Shown in pieces: positions 198-54,228 of a stretch of 64,000 nt of DNA. Position numbers and translations under genes: made by a program. A model generated the notes under the pieces. That model was not told where the DNA came from and searched no databases. It worked only from the letters and a program-made list of their open reading frames with translations. Source of the DNA: an uncultured Candidatus Saccharibacteria bacterium. GTDB taxonomy: Bacteria > Patescibacteriota > CALEFQ01 > G965231055. The DNA lies in the NCBI GenBank assembly GCA_965231055.1, contig OZ246411.1, forward strand, positions 48,334-112,333, read 5' to 3'. Every line of letters begins with the position of its first letter. Position 1 is the stretch's first letter.

Positions 198-839
198 TCA
201 CTCTCCAACTTGGATAGTTTCAATTCGGATCTGGGTGCGTCTTTTGCTTCGATGATCAACAAGGATTGAGGATATAAACGGCCCGGGAGAAAACGGGATT
301 CCACTCCTGACGGTAATAACTGATGAATCCGCGTTTAGGCTGAGCTCGATTGGGACATTGATTATATCGAGATCGTCTTCCTCTTTTGGATACAACCATT
401 GTCCTGTCAGGTGATCAAGAACCAAATAAAGCACGAACATGTCAATCTTAACTTTTTGATTCCGATTTCCGTGAAATCTGACGGGGATTTTCGTAAATTC
501 ACCCCGGAGAATTCCTATTCTCAACCACTCTCTACATGTTGATTCCAGATCACCCCATGTTGTTGCAAGTTCTGATTCATACGAACGAATTTTGGAGAAT
601 TCTATGACCGCGCGCACATAACTGCAGATCAAATGCGAAGAAGCTTTGGCTAACTCAACAGGGGCATTGGGAATTCCGCAAAGCACTGATATAACCGATT
701 GCATTTTATTCATTACGATATGGTTCAACACACGACCAAGAAGATTGATCTTCTGCTCCGTCGTTGGCTCGACAACTTGTGGCTCGACGATCCTCCGATT
801 ACTACCGCTAAACCTCTTGATATTTGCTTTCTTATTCAT
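198..839 (-). CDS. hypothetical protein (GC-rich island gene, strong SD gaggagg)
   Basis: 213-aa ORF; about 50% GC versus about 33% background; strong SD 7 nt before ATG; conserved 80-nt leader upstream. Confidence 0.5.
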   Translation of the reverse strand: MNKKANIKRFSGSNRRIVEPQVVEPTTEQKINLLGRVLNHIVMNKMQSVISVLCGIPNAPVELAKASSHLICSYVRAVIEFSKIRSYESELATTWGDLESTCREWLRIGILRGEFTKIPVRFHGNRNQKVKIDMFVLYLVLDHLTGQWLYPKEEDDLDIINVPIELSLNADSSVITVRSGIPFSPGPFISSILVDHRSKRRTQIRIETIQVGE

Positions 840-10632: not shown

Positions 10633-11139
10633 TCAAGTTTCTGTTTTTTTTCTTTCTGGGGAGCCATTGCAAACCAGTTGCCGTAAACAGTATTCTTTAC
10701 AACTATCACAATGACTCATGTGCACAACTGCATTTATTAGTCTCAGAATTATACCAGCATCGTAATCTGCGCCCTGAATAACAAACTGGCCAAATGCATG
10801 TTTGTGATTATCACATACATGATTCATGATTTCTTCTCTTTTGAGTGTTTCAGCCCACTGCCTTTCTCTCCAATACTCTGTACGAGAAAATACAAATGTA
10901 AGAATTGCGGAAAAACAGCACAACGCAATTAAAACAAGAGAGGCTATTGGCCCAAAGAGACCCCATTCATGCAATGCTATAGACACCACACATGCCACCA
11001 AACAACCGACGCAAGCTGATAACCAATCCGAAGATTTCATCTTAAACCCCTTTTTTGAAAGAGCCCCAATGGCTGTTAATGAAACAAAATGCATCATATT
11101 TCCTGACAATAAACTAATACAAGGATTCCAAAAAGTCAA
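10633..11139 (-). CDS. membrane protein with C-terminal Cys/His cluster
   Basis: TM segments plus HxCDNHKH...HCDSCKEYC. Confidence 0.4.
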   Translation of the reverse strand: MTFWNPCISLLSGNMMHFVSLTAIGALSKKGFKMKSSDWLSACVGCLVACVVSIALHEWGLFGPIASLVLIALCCFSAILTFVFSRTEYWRERQWAETLKREEIMNHVCDNHKHAFGQFVIQGADYDAGIILRLINAVVHMSHCDSCKEYCLRQLVCNGSPERKKTET

Positions 11140-26358: not shown

Positions 26359-26913
26359 ATGAAAAAGCATGTTTACTTATTAGTTGGTCAGCGTGGAGCA
26401 GGCAAAAGTTATTACGCCAAGCGATTGCTCACTGCACAACCCGAACTTTTACTCATAAGTCGTGACGAGATTCTTGTGCGTAATTTCGGCTCTACCGATA
26501 CGAACCCCTACGGCGGAACACAATGGTATGCCCTCAAGGCTATGCATCGTCTTCTTCGCTTTGTACTTCGGACTCGACCAACAGCCAAAATCATACTGGA
26601 CTGCTGGACAGGAGACAGCAAGGAACGAGCGTCACTTGTGCAAAAGCTCATAGAATACGGTGCGACCAAGGTTGTAGCTCTTTATTTTATAACACCACGC
26701 GAGATCGTAAACGATTGGTTTTGGCTCAAACCGGGAATAGCAAAAATGGAAGAGATGAGGTCACGTAAAGGGGAAAATCTTGTGTATTTTTCTGCCGAAG
26801 CACCCTTGCGAGATCATGAAGTATTCCATCAATTTGCACAGCAAATCGATTCAGACGGCTTCGATGAAGTTATCAGAATCAATCCACTCAACGAGCTCGT
26901 ATTCCTAGACTAA
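26359..26913 (+). CDS. P-loop kinase/ATPase (AAA_33/zeta-toxin-like); GC-rich, strong SD
   Basis: Walker A GQRGAGKS; about 50% GC; SD gaggagga; directly 3' of tRNA-Ser. Confidence 0.6.
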   Translation: MKKHVYLLVGQRGAGKSYYAKRLLTAQPELLLISRDEILVRNFGSTDTNPYGGTQWYALKAMHRLLRFVLRTRPTAKIILDCWTGDSKERASLVQKLIEYGATKVVALYFITPREIVNDWFWLKPGIAKMEEMRSRKGENLVYFSAEAPLRDHEVFHQFAQQIDSDGFDEVIRINPLNELVFLD

Positions 26914-39027: not shown

Positions 39028-39636
39028 CTAAACCCCGAATGACCTGATCACGTATGAATTAACAAACTCGAGAACTGTAGGCATCACGGATATGACCTTC
39101 TCAATCTCAACAACAATCTCGGGTGGAATTCTTCTAAATTCTTCCTTCACCTCTTGAAGAAAAGATTTTGTTAATTTCGCCCGAGACTTATTCTCGTAAT
39201 CAAGAATGTCCCCGTTACCATAGTGTGCGAAATCACTTTCATAATACGGACGGTCATGTGGTTGATCAATGGATTTTGGGAGTAAAATTTTGAGCATCGG
39301 CAACCAGAAAATCTTGGAAACAGATTTTTCGTTTTCGATGTACACACGCCACAGCATCAACCACGAATAAATTTCAACATTTGGCCGCCAATCAAGGGGC
39401 TCTGGATCAGGCGGAACAATGAGTTTGTCAGTCACGGTGGCTATCATGGTAGCTGAAAGGCAATACGAAATCCACCGAAAATTAACTGGGCAAAAACTAC
39501 TGCCCACACCTTTTCCGAGAATAATATAATCATAACTCACATCTCCAGCACCCATAAGAGATAACCACTTCATCACATCGTTCATCTGAAGAAGATCTGC
39601 AGTCAAAAATTCACTAGGTAATACAAGCTTATTCAT
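39028..39636 (-). CDS. hypothetical protein (GC-elevated, strong SD aaggag)
   Basis: 202 aa; about 41% GC. Confidence 0.4.
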   Translation of the reverse strand: MNKLVLPSEFLTADLLQMNDVMKWLSLMGAGDVSYDYIILGKGVGSSFCPVNFRWISYCLSATMIATVTDKLIVPPDPEPLDWRPNVEIYSWLMLWRVYIENEKSVSKIFWLPMLKILLPKSIDQPHDRPYYESDFAHYGNGDILDYENKSRAKLTKSFLQEVKEEFRRIPPEIVVEIEKVISVMPTVLEFVNSYVIRSFGV

Positions 39637-50850: not shown

Positions 50851-51843
50851 TTAGTTTTCTACTACTTTTTCATATTCCTTCAAAAACTTTTCTCTAAATT
50901 CTTCTCTTCTATCGTTTTCGTGAAATTTCAAAATCTTGTCGCATACGATCACATCAGTGTTGGGCTTGTCGCTTTTAGTTTTGTGCTCCCTGCTCATATA
51001 CTTTAGCTGCATTTTTTTCACCATTTTTTCGATTAGCCGACCAAAGCGCCCACCCAAAATATTTTCCCATATACTAGCTACCATTTTAGAAAAATTGGTG
51101 TCATCTACTCTTCTCCTGAAAGAAGGACTAAATCCATGAAATCTATAAAACCATCTCCCTATCCACAAATTTGCTTTTTGAAATTTTTTGTAAACCTTGC
51201 CACCTCTTTCATAAATCGGAGCCATAATAGCAATCCAGTTTATAAAATATGGATCATATGGTTTTTTTTGCAGATGTCTAAGATCCAAATATTTATCAGT
51301 CACAAAAAAACTCAAACATAGTTTATTTGATATTTTGAATCTTCTCCACTGTCCCTGAATAGCAAAAAGAAATGTGATAAAAAGTCTAGCCGTCCACATC
51401 CTACCATCCTTTACGATAATAAAAATATCTATATCACTTCTTTCGCTGATTGCATTGATGGGATTTGTATTACATAGCCCAACTAGCTTCACAAAAGGAA
51501 CAAATCTCAATTGTTTAGTCATTTTTACTGCTTTATCCCATCTTTTTATCGCGAGCAAATGCCTATCCCTTCTTGTTTGAATATTGCCTTCTCGATCTTT
51601 GAGAAAATAAAATCCATCCCTAGTTCTAAGTCTCTCTTTGAGCCAATCACTTTCATCAAGTGCCTTGTAAACATCCTCAAGGCTAACTTCAGATTTTCTA
51701 AACTCATCTTTAATCACCAATTCATTTGTGCCCGAGTCTATGCTCTGCAAAAATTTGTATATCTCAAGAACTGTCAGTGGGTATCTGAAAATATCGTAGA
51801 ACACGATGGTTGCCAATATGTCTTTTTCTATGTACGTAGACAT
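50851..51843 (-). CDS. hypothetical protein with minimal nucleotidyltransferase-fold motif
   Basis: VGLCNTNPINAISERSDIDIFII (G-x13-DxD) and later VTDKY acidic residue. Confidence 0.35.
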   Translation of the reverse strand: MSTYIEKDILATIVFYDIFRYPLTVLEIYKFLQSIDSGTNELVIKDEFRKSEVSLEDVYKALDESDWLKERLRTRDGFYFLKDREGNIQTRRDRHLLAIKRWDKAVKMTKQLRFVPFVKLVGLCNTNPINAISERSDIDIFIIVKDGRMWTARLFITFLFAIQGQWRRFKISNKLCLSFFVTDKYLDLRHLQKKPYDPYFINWIAIMAPIYERGGKVYKKFQKANLWIGRWFYRFHGFSPSFRRRVDDTNFSKMVASIWENILGGRFGRLIEKMVKKMQLKYMSREHKTKSDKPNTDVIVCDKILKFHENDRREEFREKFLKEYEKVVEN

Positions 51844-51844
51844 T

Positions 51845-52003
51845 TGATTAGAAGCATTAAAAGGACTAGGGATTAGATATTGGGTGTTAGGTTATGGGTT
51901 TTAGAAGTATTAAAGGATCTAGATGAACTAGAAATTAATCGGTTCTTATAATATCTTTGATGCTTCTAGGTTCACTAAAAACTTTAATCTATAACCTAAC
52001 ACC
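51845..52003. repeat. TTAGAAG/CTAGGG/TTAGAT word-repeat region containing a perfect 13-bp inverted repeat (51883..51895 / 51991..52003)
   Basis: ggtgttaggttat ... ataacctaacacc 95 bp apart; divergent intergenic spacer. Confidence 0.5.
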
Positions 52004-52090
52004 TCGCTCGTAGTGTAACAAGTAATACTACTAATTTTTTTGAACTTTATCAATAAAAATGCTATTATTCCTTATTAATCACAAAAAATT

Positions 52091-52738
52091 ATGTCCATAA
52101 AAAATAGTGAGTCAATGCCGAATAAGCAAGAACAAGAGCCACAAATAGACATCACGCAAAAAACTAAGGAGCTCGAAAAAGCATTAAAATCAAAAAAAAG
52201 CTTCACCCTGATAGAATTAGCATCGATAGCGTCGATACTTCTATGTCTCGGGGGCGTTGTTAAAGAAAGGTTTCCCAAAGTCAGAGGAGAAAACACAAAA
52301 CCAGAAATGTCCACCCCAAGTCAAGAAAAACCTAAACAAAAAATGTGGGAGGAAGATTTTCACACAAACGAACAAAAAAAATCTACTCGTGAAATTAAAT
52401 CAGAGCCGGAACAAAAAAGCGAAGAAGACAAACTTCAAGACGCGATCAAAATGTGCGTAGATGATTTTGAAAAAGGAGCATTCCGCCACAAAACAGAAAG
52501 TCCGGTAAGATGGATGATATTTGATGCAAGACAACCCAAAGAGGGCGAAACTCAAAGCAATTTTGAAATCAATTCGGCAAAAGAACAAATAACTGAAAAA
52601 ATAGACGGAATGATTGATGCAATGCGCACAGAAAAAAATGACGAAGAAGCTGACTACATGGAAGAACTGCGAGACAAGATCTCTGCATGCAATAGCGAGG
52701 AAGAATTAGCAAAACTACAATCCGAGCTTAAACGATAA
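52091..52738 (+). CDS. K/E-rich single-TM protein, hypothetical (possible retron-associated effector)
   Basis: TM FTLIELASIASILLCLGGVV then charged low-complexity tail; ends 70 nt before the retron-like ncRNA. Confidence 0.45.
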   Translation: MSIKNSESMPNKQEQEPQIDITQKTKELEKALKSKKSFTLIELASIASILLCLGGVVKERFPKVRGENTKPEMSTPSQEKPKQKMWEEDFHTNEQKKSTREIKSEPEQKSEEDKLQDAIKMCVDDFEKGAFRHKTESPVRWMIFDARQPKEGETQSNFEINSAKEQITEKIDGMIDAMRTEKNDEEADYMEELRDKISACNSEEELAKLQSELKR

Positions 52739-52807
52739 TCAAACAAATGAAGCAAAGCATTGACAATGCACCAAACAGTGCTATGTTTTTTGTATAAGTC
52801 GGTACAT

Positions 52808-52957
52808 CGGGGACTGGTATTGAAACCGAAAAGGATATCAAAAGATATCTCCGTTTACACAAGTAAGCGGAAGGGAAATCTACAAAGTGGATTTTCCACC
52901 AAAATCAAACTTTTCTATGTCCGACTATGCCAAGTGGGAAAACAAGTCCAGTCCCCG
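52808..52957 (+). ncRNA. retron-like msr/msd non-coding RNA candidate
   Basis: a1 cggggactgg (52808..52817) and a2 ccagtccccg (52948..52957) 10-bp inverted repeat; internal hairpins; 33 nt before the RT start. Confidence 0.45.
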
Positions 52958-52990
52958 CCCCCTTGGTATTAGGACAAAATAGGAGGAATT

Positions 52991-53860
52991 ATGGGTTCTT
53001 TAAAAAATAAATTTGGAAGTGATATCGAAAACCCTATGTTTTATCGCGAGACCATGTTACCCTTTTGCAAAAAGAATCGCACCATCAGTATCCAAAATCA
53101 AGAAATGAGGAAGCTTCAAAAAAGATTTGCAAAATATATTAGGCAAATCAAAAGTTGGAATGAAGAAAAGTCTGTTGTCGTAAATTTGATACTCCATTCA
53201 TATCAAGGAAGATTTTTCTATCTCACAGATATTTGCGATGCCTTTTCATCTGTAAAGCTAGATCGATTTTTGGGAGCTTTTTCAAGGGCGAGCCATAATC
53301 ATTGGAGTGATGCCAAAGAATTTCTGCAAATCTTTTTTTCCGAAAACGGAGAACTAATTACCGGAGGATCAGCATCTCCCGCAATCTTTAGCCTGTACTG
53401 TCACTTATTGCTAGATGTCGAAATCAGAAACGTAATTGAAAATCAACCAATACTGTACACGAGATATGTTGACAACCTAACATTTTCATCACCCAAAAGA
53501 ATTGGAGCTAAGACAAGAAAAGAAATAAGAAGAGCTATGGCAAAAGTTGGGTTTAGACCAAATCATGGTAAATCCAAAGTCCTCGACATAAAAAAGGGAC
53601 CAATAAATATCATGGGACTAAATATGGATGACTCGAGACAGGTATTTTTCCGCAGAGAAATGCTGGCAAAAATTCACGGACTCCTACATTCATACAAGTC
53701 TAGAAAAGATGTCCCAATCGAGGTGTTACTTGGTTATTACGGCATATTCAAAGATCTTTATATAAACCACAGCCACCGCGCAAAAACAACATCACTTTCA
53801 GAAAAAATCAAAGCTCAATTTCAAGAACTATTTTTACAAACACGAGGGGATTATTTTTGA
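52991..53860 (+). CDS. retron-type reverse transcriptase (YXDD box = YVDN)
   Basis: RT motifs KKNRTISIQNQEMRKLQ (1), NLILH (NAxxH), FYLTDICDAF (A), GGSASPAIFSLY (B'), YTRYVDNLTFSS (C), IMGLNM (VTG-like); SD aggagg. Confidence 0.75.
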   Translation: MGSLKNKFGSDIENPMFYRETMLPFCKKNRTISIQNQEMRKLQKRFAKYIRQIKSWNEEKSVVVNLILHSYQGRFFYLTDICDAFSSVKLDRFLGAFSRASHNHWSDAKEFLQIFFSENGELITGGSASPAIFSLYCHLLLDVEIRNVIENQPILYTRYVDNLTFSSPKRIGAKTRKEIRRAMAKVGFRPNHGKSKVLDIKKGPINIMGLNMDDSRQVFFRREMLAKIHGLLHSYKSRKDVPIEVLLGYYGIFKDLYINHSHRAKTTSLSEKIKAQFQELFLQTRGDYF

Positions 53861-53878
53861 TCCCCTTTTTTATTTTTT
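53846..53878 (+). terminator. rho-independent terminator of RT gene
   Basis: ggggattatttttgatcccc + T-run; a second minus-strand terminator follows at 53879..53911. Confidence 0.6.
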
Positions 53879-53925
53879 AAATAAAAAGACCCTCCAACTT
53901 TTGGAGGGTCTATATGGACTACTAT

Positions 53926-54228
53926 TTATTTAGCTGTGAACCACTTGATGCTGGTGATCAATGCCCATACCCAAGCGATCATCATTAGAGGGATTCCGAT
54001 AATCATTCCAATTATGGTCCAGATCAATACCCATCCTACCAAAGCTAGAACCAACTGGATAACTCCTGGCTTCATTTGCTTGGCAATAATTGTTCCAAGT
54101 CCAGGAAGAACTGCTATGTTGACGATCAAACCGACGATTTTCAAAGTCTGGTTTGGATCTGATGGCTGTGTGGCAGGTCCTGTTGGAGGAGTCTGCTGTG
54201 GAGCCGACTGCTGTGCTTGATTTTCCAT
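53926..54228 (-). CDS. small 2-TM membrane protein with Q/P-rich N-terminus
   Basis: MENQAQQSAPQQTPP + 2-3 TM; resembles the N-terminus of 47702..48061. Confidence 0.45.
   Translation of the reverse strand: MENQAQQSAPQQTPPTGPATQPSDPNQTLKIVGLIVNIAVLPGLGTIIAKQMKPGVIQLVLALVGWVLIWTIIGMIIGIPLMMIAWVWALITSIKWFTAK

What the first reader, a model, noticed from the sequence alone, without database searches (positions are those of the whole stretch)
50851..54228. Compact retron-like module (ncRNA + 289-aa RT) with membrane-protein neighbours
A non-coding stretch with a sigma70-like promoter carries a 10-bp inverted repeat, cggggactgg (52808) and ccagtccccg (52948), about 140 nt apart. It also has internal stem-loops, and it ends 33 nt before a reverse transcriptase. 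This is the layout of retron msr-msd RNA, where the a1/a2 repeats bracket the RNA and the RT follows immediately.

The RT has the retron-family order of motifs: KKNRTISIQ..LQKRF (1), a shortened motif 2 ending NLILH (NAxxH), LTDICDAF (A), SPAIFSLY (B'), YTRYVDNLTFSS (C), and an IMGLNM VTG-like stretch.

Flanking genes are a K/E-rich single-TM protein directly upstream on the same strand, a minimal-NTase-fold protein divergent upstream, and a 2-TM Q/P-rich protein downstream. These are the kinds of partners retron effectors usually are.

The module has a strong SD (aggagg) in a genome where native genes lack SDs, so it is probably horizontally acquired. It sits between groES and uvrA.
Basis: partly seen in the sequence, partly recalled or inferred. 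Interest (0 to 1): 0.8.

Follow-up and report, generated by a model that had tools for sequence, protein, structure and literature searches.

The report
Minimal retron-like RT plus ncRNA
A 1.1-kb insert in a Patescibacteria (CPR) genome carries only a retron-family reverse transcriptase and the folded RNA it partners with, and no toxin or effector gene, so it belongs to an undescribed two-part branch of the retron family rather than a classical three-part defence retron.

Summary
A 10-bp inverted repeat (52808/52948) closes a strongly structured RNA (z = -6.6) behind a TTGACA-N16-TATGTT promoter and 33 nt before a 289-aa RT. By sequence, profile and fold the RT sits in the retron clade, but it reaches no curated type cut-off.

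The RNA carries two adjacent hairpins (52850-52897). These form a conserved, covarying motif found next to more than 30 homologous RTs, always on the RT strand. A model built without the window finds it only here. Rfam has no match.

The "effector neighbours" reading fails. In a close relative (L086), the NTase-like, K/E-rich and 2-TM genes lie between groES and uvrA in the same order, with no RT or RNA. The window has about 1,140 nt (52741-53877) where that genome has 13 nt. Across about 55 family loci no neighbouring gene recurs.

So this is a two-part retron-like element: promoter, ncRNA, RT, terminator. The window copy and its nearest relative are a derived pair. Their motif C reads YVDN/FVDN where 150 relatives have xDD, and their RNA is short and lacks the family's long msd-like hairpin and CCUCAGCG box.

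Function is untested. My best guess is a short branched msDNA. I rate it a new variant of a known kind.

The parts
52760..52787 (+). Sigma-70-type promoter TTGACA-N16-(TG)TATGTT. The predicted transcription start is about 52794-52797.
   Evidence: Consensus scan, 10 of 12 matches. The -35 element and the TGnTA -10 element align with the promoter of the nearest homologous locus L084. The start site is inferred.
52808..52817 (+). a1 arm of the closing inverted repeat (CGGGGACUGG)
   Evidence: It pairs with 52948-52957. In L084 the arms are GGGGGAGCGAAG and CUUCGCUUCCC, a compensatory change. Long-range repeats in the same position but with different sequences occur in at least 16 family loci.
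52834..52849 (+). hp1, a small hairpin (GAUAUC-AAAA-GAUAUC) specific to the window/L084 subclade
   Evidence: MFE and centroid folds. L084 has a 9-bp hairpin of different sequence at the same place.
52850..52871 (+). HP-A, a 9-bp hairpin. First half of the conserved msr-like motif and the likely RT recognition element.
   Evidence: Fold. Covariance model R2, built without the window, hits only 52841-52908 on the + strand in all 64 kb (24.8 bits, E = 2.6e-4). All 9 pairs show compensatory changes across 31 loci.
52873..52897 (+). HP-B, an 11-bp hairpin (GGGAAAUCUAC-AAA-GUGGAUUUUCC). Second half of the conserved motif.
   Evidence: 8 of its 9 modelled pairs show compensatory changes across the family.
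52898..52947 (+). A 50-nt, weakly structured segment between HP-B and a2. It occupies the msd (template) position and is the putative template for a short cDNA.
   Evidence: Position relative to a2. In most homologues this position holds a long hairpin followed by C[CU]UCAGCG, both absent here. L084 has a comparable segment of about 45 nt. The template role is inferred.
52948..52957 (+). a2 arm of the closing inverted repeat (CCAGUCCCCG)
52981..52986 (+). Shine-Dalgarno AGGAGG, 4 nt before the ATG
   Evidence: Only 5 of 49 long ORFs in the window have an SD. SD-like sequences also precede the RT in L084 and L001.
52991..53860 (+). Retron-clade reverse transcriptase, 289 aa. Motif C reads YVDN, region X NLILH and region Y IMG.
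   Evidence: Pfam RVT_1 3e-10. All top 25 PADLOC hits are retron RTs. NCBIfam retron_St85_RT 7e-20 against group II 9e-5. PDB profile search Ec86 1.6e-33 against group II 6e-9. AF2 model pLDDT 93.6, with the top 18 PDB folds all retron RTs.
53844..53867 (+). Intrinsic-terminator-like hairpin with a T-run at the end of the RT gene
52741..53877 (.). Extent of the module as an insertion/deletion relative to a close relative. About 1,140 nt here replace 13 nt (CTTATCGTATTAC) in L086.
   Evidence: The flanking genes are 85%, 37% and 87% identical in protein.

Best explanation
52741-53877 is a self-contained, two-part retron-like element in a Patescibacteria genome. It consists of its own promoter, a structured ncRNA of about 160 nt (roughly 52796-52960), a 289-aa retron-clade RT translated from the same transcript through a strong SD, and a terminator.

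Shown:
- The RT belongs to the retron clade but to none of the typed groups.
- The ncRNA carries a conserved, covarying two-hairpin motif (HP-A/HP-B) closed by an a1/a2 stem. This motif accompanies homologous RTs in dozens of loci.
- The element is present here and absent from the same site in a close relative.
- Neither this copy nor the family has a conserved effector gene or a fused effector domain.

Inferred, by analogy with characterised retrons:
- The RT binds HP-A/HP-B as its msr.
- It primes on the 2'-OH of a G at the inner end of the a1/a2 duplex.
- It copies the 50-nt segment 52898-52947 into a short (50 nt or less) branched msDNA that stays bound to the RT-RNA complex.

Whatever this complex does, whether phage sensing with a partner encoded elsewhere or acting alone, it does without a cis-encoded effector.

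The window copy and its nearest relative (P0003, locus L084) form a derived subclade. It has xDN in place of xDD in motif C and a shortened template region.
For: RT clade:
- All top 25 PADLOC hits are retron RT models (5e-20 to 2e-12).
- All 36 aligned family members match retron models, best 8e-35.
- NCBIfam retron_St85_RT scores 7e-20 against group II 9e-5 and Drt2 5e-4.
- PDB profile hits are Ec86 1.6e-33, Ec83, Ec78, Ec67, Kva2 and Eco8, against GsI-IIC 6e-9 and Drt2 2e-6.
- The AF2 model (pLDDT 93.6) has its top 18 fold matches all to retron RTs, TM 0.61-0.71.
- H of NAxxH, G of VTG, the motif A Asp and the first motif C Asp are invariant in the family.

ncRNA:
- Fold z = -6.6.
- The HP-A/HP-B covariance model hits over 30 loci at E < 1e-3, all on the RT strand.
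- 89% of cells are paired against 46-50% when the partner is slid. 17 of 18 pairs have compensatory changes, and 0 of 500 shuffles reach the observed score.
- The window-free model finds only 52841-52908 in the window.
- a1/a2 is compensatory against L084, and the promoter is conserved.
- At least 16 loci have a long-range repeat ending 1-53 nt before the RT start.

No effector:
- Neighbour clustering finds no family shared by more than 3 of about 55 loci.
- Pfam and PADLOC scans of 126 neighbours show housekeeping genes only.
- The empty site in L086 keeps all three neighbours.
- The neighbours lack an SD, like native genes.
Against: - No msDNA or RT activity has been measured.
- Motif C is YVDN. 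The second Asp of YxDD is present in 150 of 152 relatives, and its loss inactivates some RTs, so DNA synthesis may be weak or absent here.
- The window RNA lacks the long msd-type hairpin and the CCUCAGCG box that most family members keep. The template assignment is therefore by position only, and the branching G cannot be identified.
- The RT scores below every curated family cut-off (71 bits against 235 for retron_St85_RT).
- The neighbour analysis used crude ORF calls on mostly short metagenomic contigs. It cannot see an effector encoded elsewhere in the genome.
Confidence: 0.65

Rival explanations
1. Classical tripartite retron. The K/E-rich 1-TM protein, the 2-TM protein or the NTase-like protein is the toxin or effector held in check by RT-msDNA, as in type IV (2TM) retrons.
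For: The neighbours are membrane or NTase-like proteins, classes known among retron effectors. The K/E-rich gene is on the same strand, and no terminator was detected between it and the ncRNA promoter.
Against: - The close relative L086 has the same three genes, same order and orientation, between groES and uvrA, with no RT or ncRNA. The K/E-rich and 2-TM genes end 62 nt apart there.
- The NTase-like protein has 132 homologues across Patescibacteria, in loci without RTs.
- None of the three hits any PADLOC model.
- The nearest RT homologue has different neighbours: a 124-aa multi-TM protein and a PD-(D/E)XK protein.
- No neighbour family recurs.
Confidence: 0.04
2. RNP-only or altered-chemistry variant. 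In the YVDN/FVDN subclade the RT has lost or changed polymerase activity. The RT-ncRNA complex then works without classical msDNA, for example as a nucleic-acid-binding sensor or with a very short or untemplated product.
For: - Only the window RT and P0003 have xDN among 152 relatives.
- The two are sisters on long branches: 62/100 bootstrap, 0.70 and 0.64 against a median of 0.50.
- Both have the shortened RNA without the long hairpin.
- The ORF, promoter, SD and RNA pairing are all maintained, which argues for continued selection.
Against: From general knowledge, not tested here: xDN is compatible with catalysis in other right-hand polymerases, such as the GDN motif of mononegavirus L proteins. 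The motif A Asp and the first motif C Asp are intact. A 45-50-nt template-position segment is retained, and msDNAs as short as about 48 nt are known (Ec48, from memory).
Confidence: 0.17
3. Selfish or relic retroelement. The RT-ncRNA cassette spreads or persists as a small mobile insert in intergenic terminator regions and gives the host no benefit.
For: - Presence/absence between close relatives at a precise intergenic site next to a terminator.
- Family members sit between unrelated housekeeping genes.
- The L001 copy is flanked by a direct repeat of about 60 nt that includes a terminator hairpin.
- The SD is foreign to the host's usual style.
Against: - No integrase, endonuclease or maturase domain. 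The RT is 289 aa and consists of fingers, palm and thumb only.
- No target-site duplication in the window.
- Only one copy in 64 kb.
- GC content equals that of the flanks.
- Retrons have never been shown to be autonomously mobile (PMC7736814).
Confidence: 0.12
4. DRT2-like system. Rolling-circle reverse transcription of the ncRNA builds a concatemeric cDNA that encodes a toxic never-ending ORF, which would explain the lack of an effector gene.
For: The system has two parts, like DRT2. A 70-codon stop-free frame spans the window ncRNA (52760-52972; p of about 0.03 against shuffles). L084 has a 16-nt internal direct repeat near a1 and a2.
Against: - The stop-free frame is not conserved. L084 has at most 26-31 open codons, and 13 other family RNAs are no better than shuffles, with one marginal minus-strand case (L013, p = 0.02).
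- The RT matches Drt2 only at 5e-4 to 2e-6, against 1e-20 to 1e-33 for retrons.
- Template lengths vary from 46 to 147 nt across the family.
Confidence: 0.02

Closest known systems
Retrons (msr-msd ncRNA plus RT, e.g. Ec86, Ec83, Ec78, Ec67/Eco2; types I-XIII of Mestre et al. 2020, PMC7736814)
   Same: - The RT falls in the retron clade by sequence, profile and fold.
- Region X (NxxxH) and region Y (xxG) have their most conserved residues invariant.
- The ncRNA lies immediately upstream on the same transcript.
- Terminal a1/a2 repeats close the RNA, with short msr-type hairpins inside.
- Most family members also have a long msd-type hairpin.
   Different: - No associated effector gene or fused domain, although retrons are described as tripartite.
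- No type-specific model is favoured and no curated cut-off is reached.
- The window copy has YVDN and a short, weakly structured template region.
- In about 10 family loci the ncRNA lies downstream of the RT.
- The hosts are Patescibacteria/CPR, where DGRs are reported to make up about 80% of RTs (PMC8632793).
Type IV retrons (e.g. Ec48) with a 2-TM effector
   Same: A small 2-TM protein gene lies next to the RT.
   Different: The 2-TM gene is convergent, 87% identical in a relative that has no RT, and not conserved next to homologous RTs.
DRT2 (UG2) RT plus ncRNA
   Same: A two-component RT plus structured ncRNA with no effector gene.
   Different: A different RT clade. No conserved stop-free repeat unit. 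The RNA has retron-type terminal pairing.
Group II intron, G2L and DGR RTs
   Same: The shared RT fold.
   Different: Much weaker matches, 1e-5 to 1e-9. No intron RNA domains. No maturase or endonuclease domains, no Avd, and no template/variable repeat pair.

Membership tests
Retron | RT belongs to the retron/retron-like RT clade | tested here: met
   PADLOC, NCBIfam, PDB-profile and Foldseek results all rank retron RTs first by many orders of magnitude. No explicit phylogeny with reference RTs was built.
Retron | [quoted passage not shown] | tested here: met
   The window has N65-L-I-L-H69. H69 is invariant in 36 family members and the family consensus is NVxxH. The Ala is not conserved.
Retron | [quoted passage not shown] | tested here: inconclusive
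   The window has I-M-G209 and the family I-[NT]-G. G209 is invariant, but V and T are not kept.
Retron | Catalytic YxDD in motif C | tested here: not met
   The window has YVDN. 150 of 152 relatives have xDD, and only P0003 shares xDN.
Retron | Contiguous ncRNA whose ends pair (a1/a2) around 1-3 short msr hairpins | tested here: met
Retron | Long stable msd stem-loop that serves as template | tested here: not met
   The window has only a 50-nt weakly paired segment. Most family members do have a long hairpin followed by CCUCAGCG.
Retron | Production of msDNA branched from a 2'-OH of a conserved G | not testable with these tools
   This needs a small-DNA preparation, debranching assays or cDNA sequencing.
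Retron (tripartite system, types I-XIII) | A specific associated effector protein, or an effector domain fused to the RT | tested here: not met
   No recurrent neighbour. The RT is 289 aa with no extra domain. The neighbours are present without the RT in L086.
Rfam-described RNA families (including any retron msr family held there) | Match to a curated covariance model | tested here: not met
   No hit in 52739-52990 even at E <= 10. Only tRNAs reach gathering score in the window.
DRT2 (UG2) | Drt2-clade RT and an ncRNA whose repeat unit is a stop-free ORF | tested here: not met
   Drt2 model 5e-4, 19 bits against a cut-off of 390. The stop-free frame is not conserved.

The most novel reading that the evidence does not exclude
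These Patescibacteria elements may be a distinct, effector-less lineage of retron-like systems in which the RT-ncRNA complex is the whole functional unit. Within that lineage, the YVDN/short-RNA subclade seen in this window may have moved to a different output: a very short or non-canonical cDNA, or none at all. That would be a retron-derived RNP whose biological action does not follow the msDNA-guards-a-toxin model.
Probability: 0.3. Interest if true: 0.8.

Novelty: new variant of a known kind. Interest (0 to 1): 0.6.

Why it matters
Retrons are currently understood, classified and detected (by PADLOC and DefenseFinder) as three-part toxin-antitoxin-like defence systems.

This is a sizeable set of retron-clade RTs with their own conserved RNA motif and no effector, sitting as roughly 1.1-1.3-kb inserts between housekeeping genes in ultra-small CPR genomes. 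It raises the question of what an RT-msDNA complex does alone, or which distant partner it uses.

It also adds a structured RNA family that Rfam does not hold.

The natural xDN/short-template subclade is a ready-made comparison for asking whether DNA synthesis is needed at all.

The small size (289-aa RT, RNA of about 160 nt) could interest people who engineer retrons for genome editing, if msDNA is made.

Tried and rejected
- Rfam search of the region at E <= 10 gave nothing in the ncRNA. The whole window at gathering score gave only four tRNAs.
- Neighbours as effectors: rejected by the L086 empty site and the lack of recurrence.
- DRT2-like never-ending ORF: the window's 70-codon open frame over the ncRNA is not conserved.
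- Recent horizontal transfer judged from composition: GC does not differ from the flanks.
- Target-site duplications or flanking direct repeats as a general feature: found only in L001, and absent from the window and six other loci.
- Model R2 with default filters did not detect the L084 RNA, although inspection and folding show the same hairpins. The model is not fully sensitive.
- A first Biopython bootstrap run timed out and was redone with a faster distance routine.
- Literature searches for retrons in Patescibacteria/CPR or for effector-less retrons found no description of this family. One review notes only that some retrons lack clear proximal effectors (PMC8867640).
- The branching G could not be assigned from sequence.
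Full report
OBSERVATION

CGGGGACTGG (52808-52817) and CCAGTCCCCG (52948-52957) are perfectly complementary, and the pairing extends to 15 nt with a 2x2 internal mismatch. As RNA, 52795-52975 folds at -65.6 kcal/mol against -40.1 +/- 3.9 for dinucleotide shuffles (z = -6.6, 0 of 200). The repeat closes a multi-branch structure holding three hairpins. A TTGACA-N16-TATGTT promoter with a TG extension lies at 52760-52787. AGGAGG lies at 52981-52986 and the 289-aa ORF runs 52991-53860. A terminator-like hairpin overlaps the stop codon at 53844-53867. The SD remark also holds: only 5 of 49 long ORFs in the window have an SD-like motif.

THE RT

Pfam gives RVT_1 at 3e-10. In PADLOC the 25 best matches are all retron RT models, from III-A at 5e-20 through II-A, VI, XII, XI, I-C and others. 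NCBIfam gives retron_St85_RT at 7e-20, against group II at 9e-5 and Drt2 at 5e-4, but the score of 71 bits is far below the curated 235.

An exhaustive HMMER search of 1.84 billion representatives found nine proteins below 1e-30. It also found a continuum of RTs of about 300 aa at 30-40% identity.

I aligned 36 of these (A2). The motif A Asp, the first motif C Asp, H69 of the NAxxH-type motif and G209 of the VTG-type motif are invariant. All 36 hit retron models (best 8e-35), and no single type is favoured. A profile of A2 against PDB sequences ranks the Ec86 RT first (1.6e-33), then Ec83, Ec78, Ec67, Kva2 and Eco8. GsI-IIC scores 6e-9 and Drt2 2e-6.

An AlphaFold2 model is confident (pLDDT 93.6, pTM 0.89). 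Its 18 best Foldseek matches in the PDB are all retron RTs over the full length (TM 0.61-0.71), followed by DRT2, G2L4, DRT9, group II and DGR RTs. The protein is therefore a retron-clade RT that no curated type model claims.

THE RNA

The closest word-search homologue, P0002 on locus L001, also has a structured region upstream of its RT. It is closed by a long inverted repeat of quite different sequence (z = -5.5). A metagenome scan returned 80 loci. In at least 16 of them the best long-range inverted repeat upstream ends 1-53 nt before the RT start and spans 150-330 nt, each with its own sequence.

Folding these regions showed two adjacent hairpins recurring. HP-A has 7-9 bp. One nucleotide later comes HP-B, of the form GGAA..stem..UUCC. 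In the window they occupy 52850-52871 and 52873-52897.

A covariance model of this core (R1) found over 30 hits at E < 1e-3 in the loci, every one on the RT strand. On the 31 hits outside the window:
- 89% of cells are paired, against 46-50% when the partner is slid by 1-3 columns.
- 17 of 18 pairs show changes on both sides.
- No shuffle of 500 reaches the observed values.

These counts come from an alignment fitted to the model, which favours the structure. The size of the effect and the slid controls still make the structure convincing.

A second model (R2), built only from those 31 sequences, was run over all 64 kb of the window on both strands. It gave a single hit, 52841-52908 on the + strand (24.8 bits, E = 2.6e-4). 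Rfam has nothing here.

Most family RNAs continue after HP-B with a pyrimidine-rich stretch and a long hairpin, then a conserved C[CU]UCAGCG box (22 of 35 RNAs). After the outer a2 arm comes a CGCUGA box. This is the classical msr-hairpins-then-long-msd-hairpin layout described for retrons (PMC7736814).

THE WINDOW COPY IS A DERIVED VARIANT

The window RNA is short. Only 50 weakly paired nucleotides (52898-52947) lie between HP-B and a2, and there is no CCUCAGCG box.

The RT has YVDN in motif C. Among 152 relatives in which motif C could be read, 150 have xDD. The single other exception is P0003 (FVDN), the best-scoring hit to the window RT in the exhaustive search.

The P0003 locus (L084/L085) has the same short RNA layout: a1 (GGGGGAGCGAAG), an extra hairpin hp1, HP-A (UCCGUUUAUUCAGAUAGACGGA), HP-B, about 45 nt, then a2 (CUUCGCUUCCC). 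Its fold gives z = -6.75. The -35 and -10 elements align with those of the window, and the inner part of a1/a2 differs through compensatory changes.

In a neighbour-joining tree the two RTs are sisters (62 of 100 bootstraps) on longer-than-median branches. The support is moderate and long-branch attraction cannot be excluded. The shared RNA architecture is independent evidence for the grouping. Intact ORFs, a conserved promoter, the SD and compensated pairing all argue that the variant is maintained rather than decaying.

THE NEIGHBOURS ARE NOT PART OF IT

None of the three flanking proteins matches any Pfam family above threshold or any PADLOC model.

The 330-aa NTase-like protein has 132 homologues, named by their sources as Patescibacteria, Magasanikbacteria, Falkowbacteria, Kerfeldbacteria, Komeilibacteria and Peregrinibacteria. 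Some sources call it a predicted nucleotidyltransferase. This also places the window's organism in the CPR.

Contig L086 carries the closest homologue (85% identity). It has groEL, groES, the NTase-like gene, a K/E-rich 220-aa gene (37% identical), a 100-aa 2-TM gene (87% identical) and the end of uvrA, in the same order and orientation as the window. It has no RT and no ncRNA. The K/E-rich and 2-TM genes end 62 nt apart around one bidirectional terminator. Aligning the junctions shows that 13 nt in L086 (CTTATCGTATTAC) correspond to about 1,140 nt in the window, 52741-53877. Other homologues of the NTase-like gene sit in unrelated contexts without RTs.

Across the family, I clustered the ORFs around about 55 non-redundant RT loci. 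Neither blastp nor phmmer found a neighbour family shared by more than three loci. Pfam and PADLOC scans of 126 neighbours returned translation factors, ribosomal proteins, YchF, SmpB, DnaB and the like, with no recurrent defence component. The RTs themselves are about 300 aa with no extra domain.

The unit is therefore promoter, ncRNA, RT and terminator, and nothing else in cis. Two caveats apply. The ORF calls were crude and many contigs are short. A partner encoded elsewhere in the genome cannot be excluded.

HOW IT MOST LIKELY WORKS

By analogy with characterised retrons (PMC7736814):
1. The promoter at 52760 gives one transcript.
2. Its 5' part folds with a1/a2 closed.
3. The RT, translated from the same RNA, recognises HP-A/HP-B as its msr.
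4. The 2'-OH of a G at the inner end of the a1/a2 helix primes reverse transcription of the segment just 5' of a2 (52898-52947). The product is a short branched msDNA.

Only the parts list and the RNA structure are shown. Binding, priming and DNA synthesis are inferred.

The Asp-to-Asn change could reduce or alter catalysis. From general knowledge, xDN active sites work in some right-hand polymerases (GDN in mononegavirus L proteins), while D-to-N at this position inactivates others. I therefore keep an RNP-only or altered-product variant as the main rival (0.17). For the last, the window's stop-free frame over the RNA (p of about 0.03) is not reproduced in L084 or in 13 other family RNAs.

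COMPARISON WITH WHAT IS KNOWN, AND NOVELTY

The element works like a retron and meets the RT-clade and ncRNA-architecture criteria. It fails the effector criterion that defines the 13 described types. In this copy it also fails the YxDD and long-msd-hairpin criteria.

Literature searches found no description of retrons in Patescibacteria or of this RNA motif. [quoted passage not shown]

I rate it a new variant of a known kind, with interest 0.6. It is solid and moderately surprising to a specialist, and it gives a tractable system for asking what a retron RT-RNA pair does without a toxin. No function has been demonstrated.

Noticed in passing
L038 2259-2325, L053 6022-6088, L041 6025-6091, L052 1385-1451, L037 5857-5923, L054 1146-1212, L044 2458-2524, L059 5806-5872, L040 1458-1540: In a subgroup of the family, with RT ORFs called at about 330-360 aa, the HP-A/HP-B ncRNA lies 47-95 nt downstream of the RT on the same strand, not upstream. 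It has its own a1/a2 stem (GGGUUUGRGA..UCYCAAACCC) and a CUUCAGCG box.
   Followed up: partly
L017 129-195 and 503-569; L031 1389-1455 and 1750-1816; L028 193-257 and 550-616: Some loci carry two tandem copies of the ncRNA motif upstream of a single RT. The L017 pair is complete, each with a CCUCAGCG and a CGCUGA box.
   Followed up: no
L001 701-762 and 2050-2131: The RT-ncRNA cassette of the P0002 locus is flanked by a direct repeat of about 60 nt that includes a terminator-like hairpin (AAATAAAAATTGCCCAGYGATGGGC...). This could be a footprint of insertion or recombination. It was not seen in the window or in six other loci.
   Followed up: partly
L084 2614-2629 and 2746-2761: A 16-nt direct repeat inside the ncRNA (GTAGARRCAGCTTATT, 14 of 16 identical). 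One copy ends just 5' of a1 and the other ends a few nucleotides 5' of a2. Its meaning is unknown, and the window has no clear counterpart.
   Followed up: no
family ncRNAs, e.g. L001 888-898, 1010-1017 and 1058-1063: There are three conserved short boxes: yUGAGG before HP-A, C[CU]UCAGCG after the long hairpin, and CGCUGA just 3' of a2. UGAGG and CGCUGA can each pair with overlapping parts of the middle box, which suggests alternative pairings.
   Followed up: partly
window, whole 64 kb: Only 5 of 49 ORFs of at least 150 codons have an SD-like sequence upstream. They are 198-839(-), 10633-11097(-) (weak), 26359-26913(+), 39028-39636(-) and the RT. This genome largely does without SD-led initiation.
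   Followed up: partly
window 52760-52972 (+): A 70-codon ORF with no stop runs across the whole ncRNA. It is unusual against shuffles (p of about 0.03) but not conserved in L084, so it is probably chance.
   Followed up: yes
L084 3969-4949; L085 5165-5947: A PD-(D/E)XK (PDDEXK_1) protein gene lies 259 nt downstream of the P0003 RT on the same strand in L084. L085 has a gene at the same offset, but it is cut by the contig end, has no Pfam call and was not compared with the L084 gene. No counterpart occurs next to the window RT or other family members.
   Followed up: partly
window 53887-53911: A bidirectional terminator hairpin (AGACCCTCC-AAAAGTT-GGAGGGTCT) lies between the RT and the 2-TM gene. 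It is homologous to the single terminator at the empty site in L086, so it predates the insertion.
   Followed up: yes
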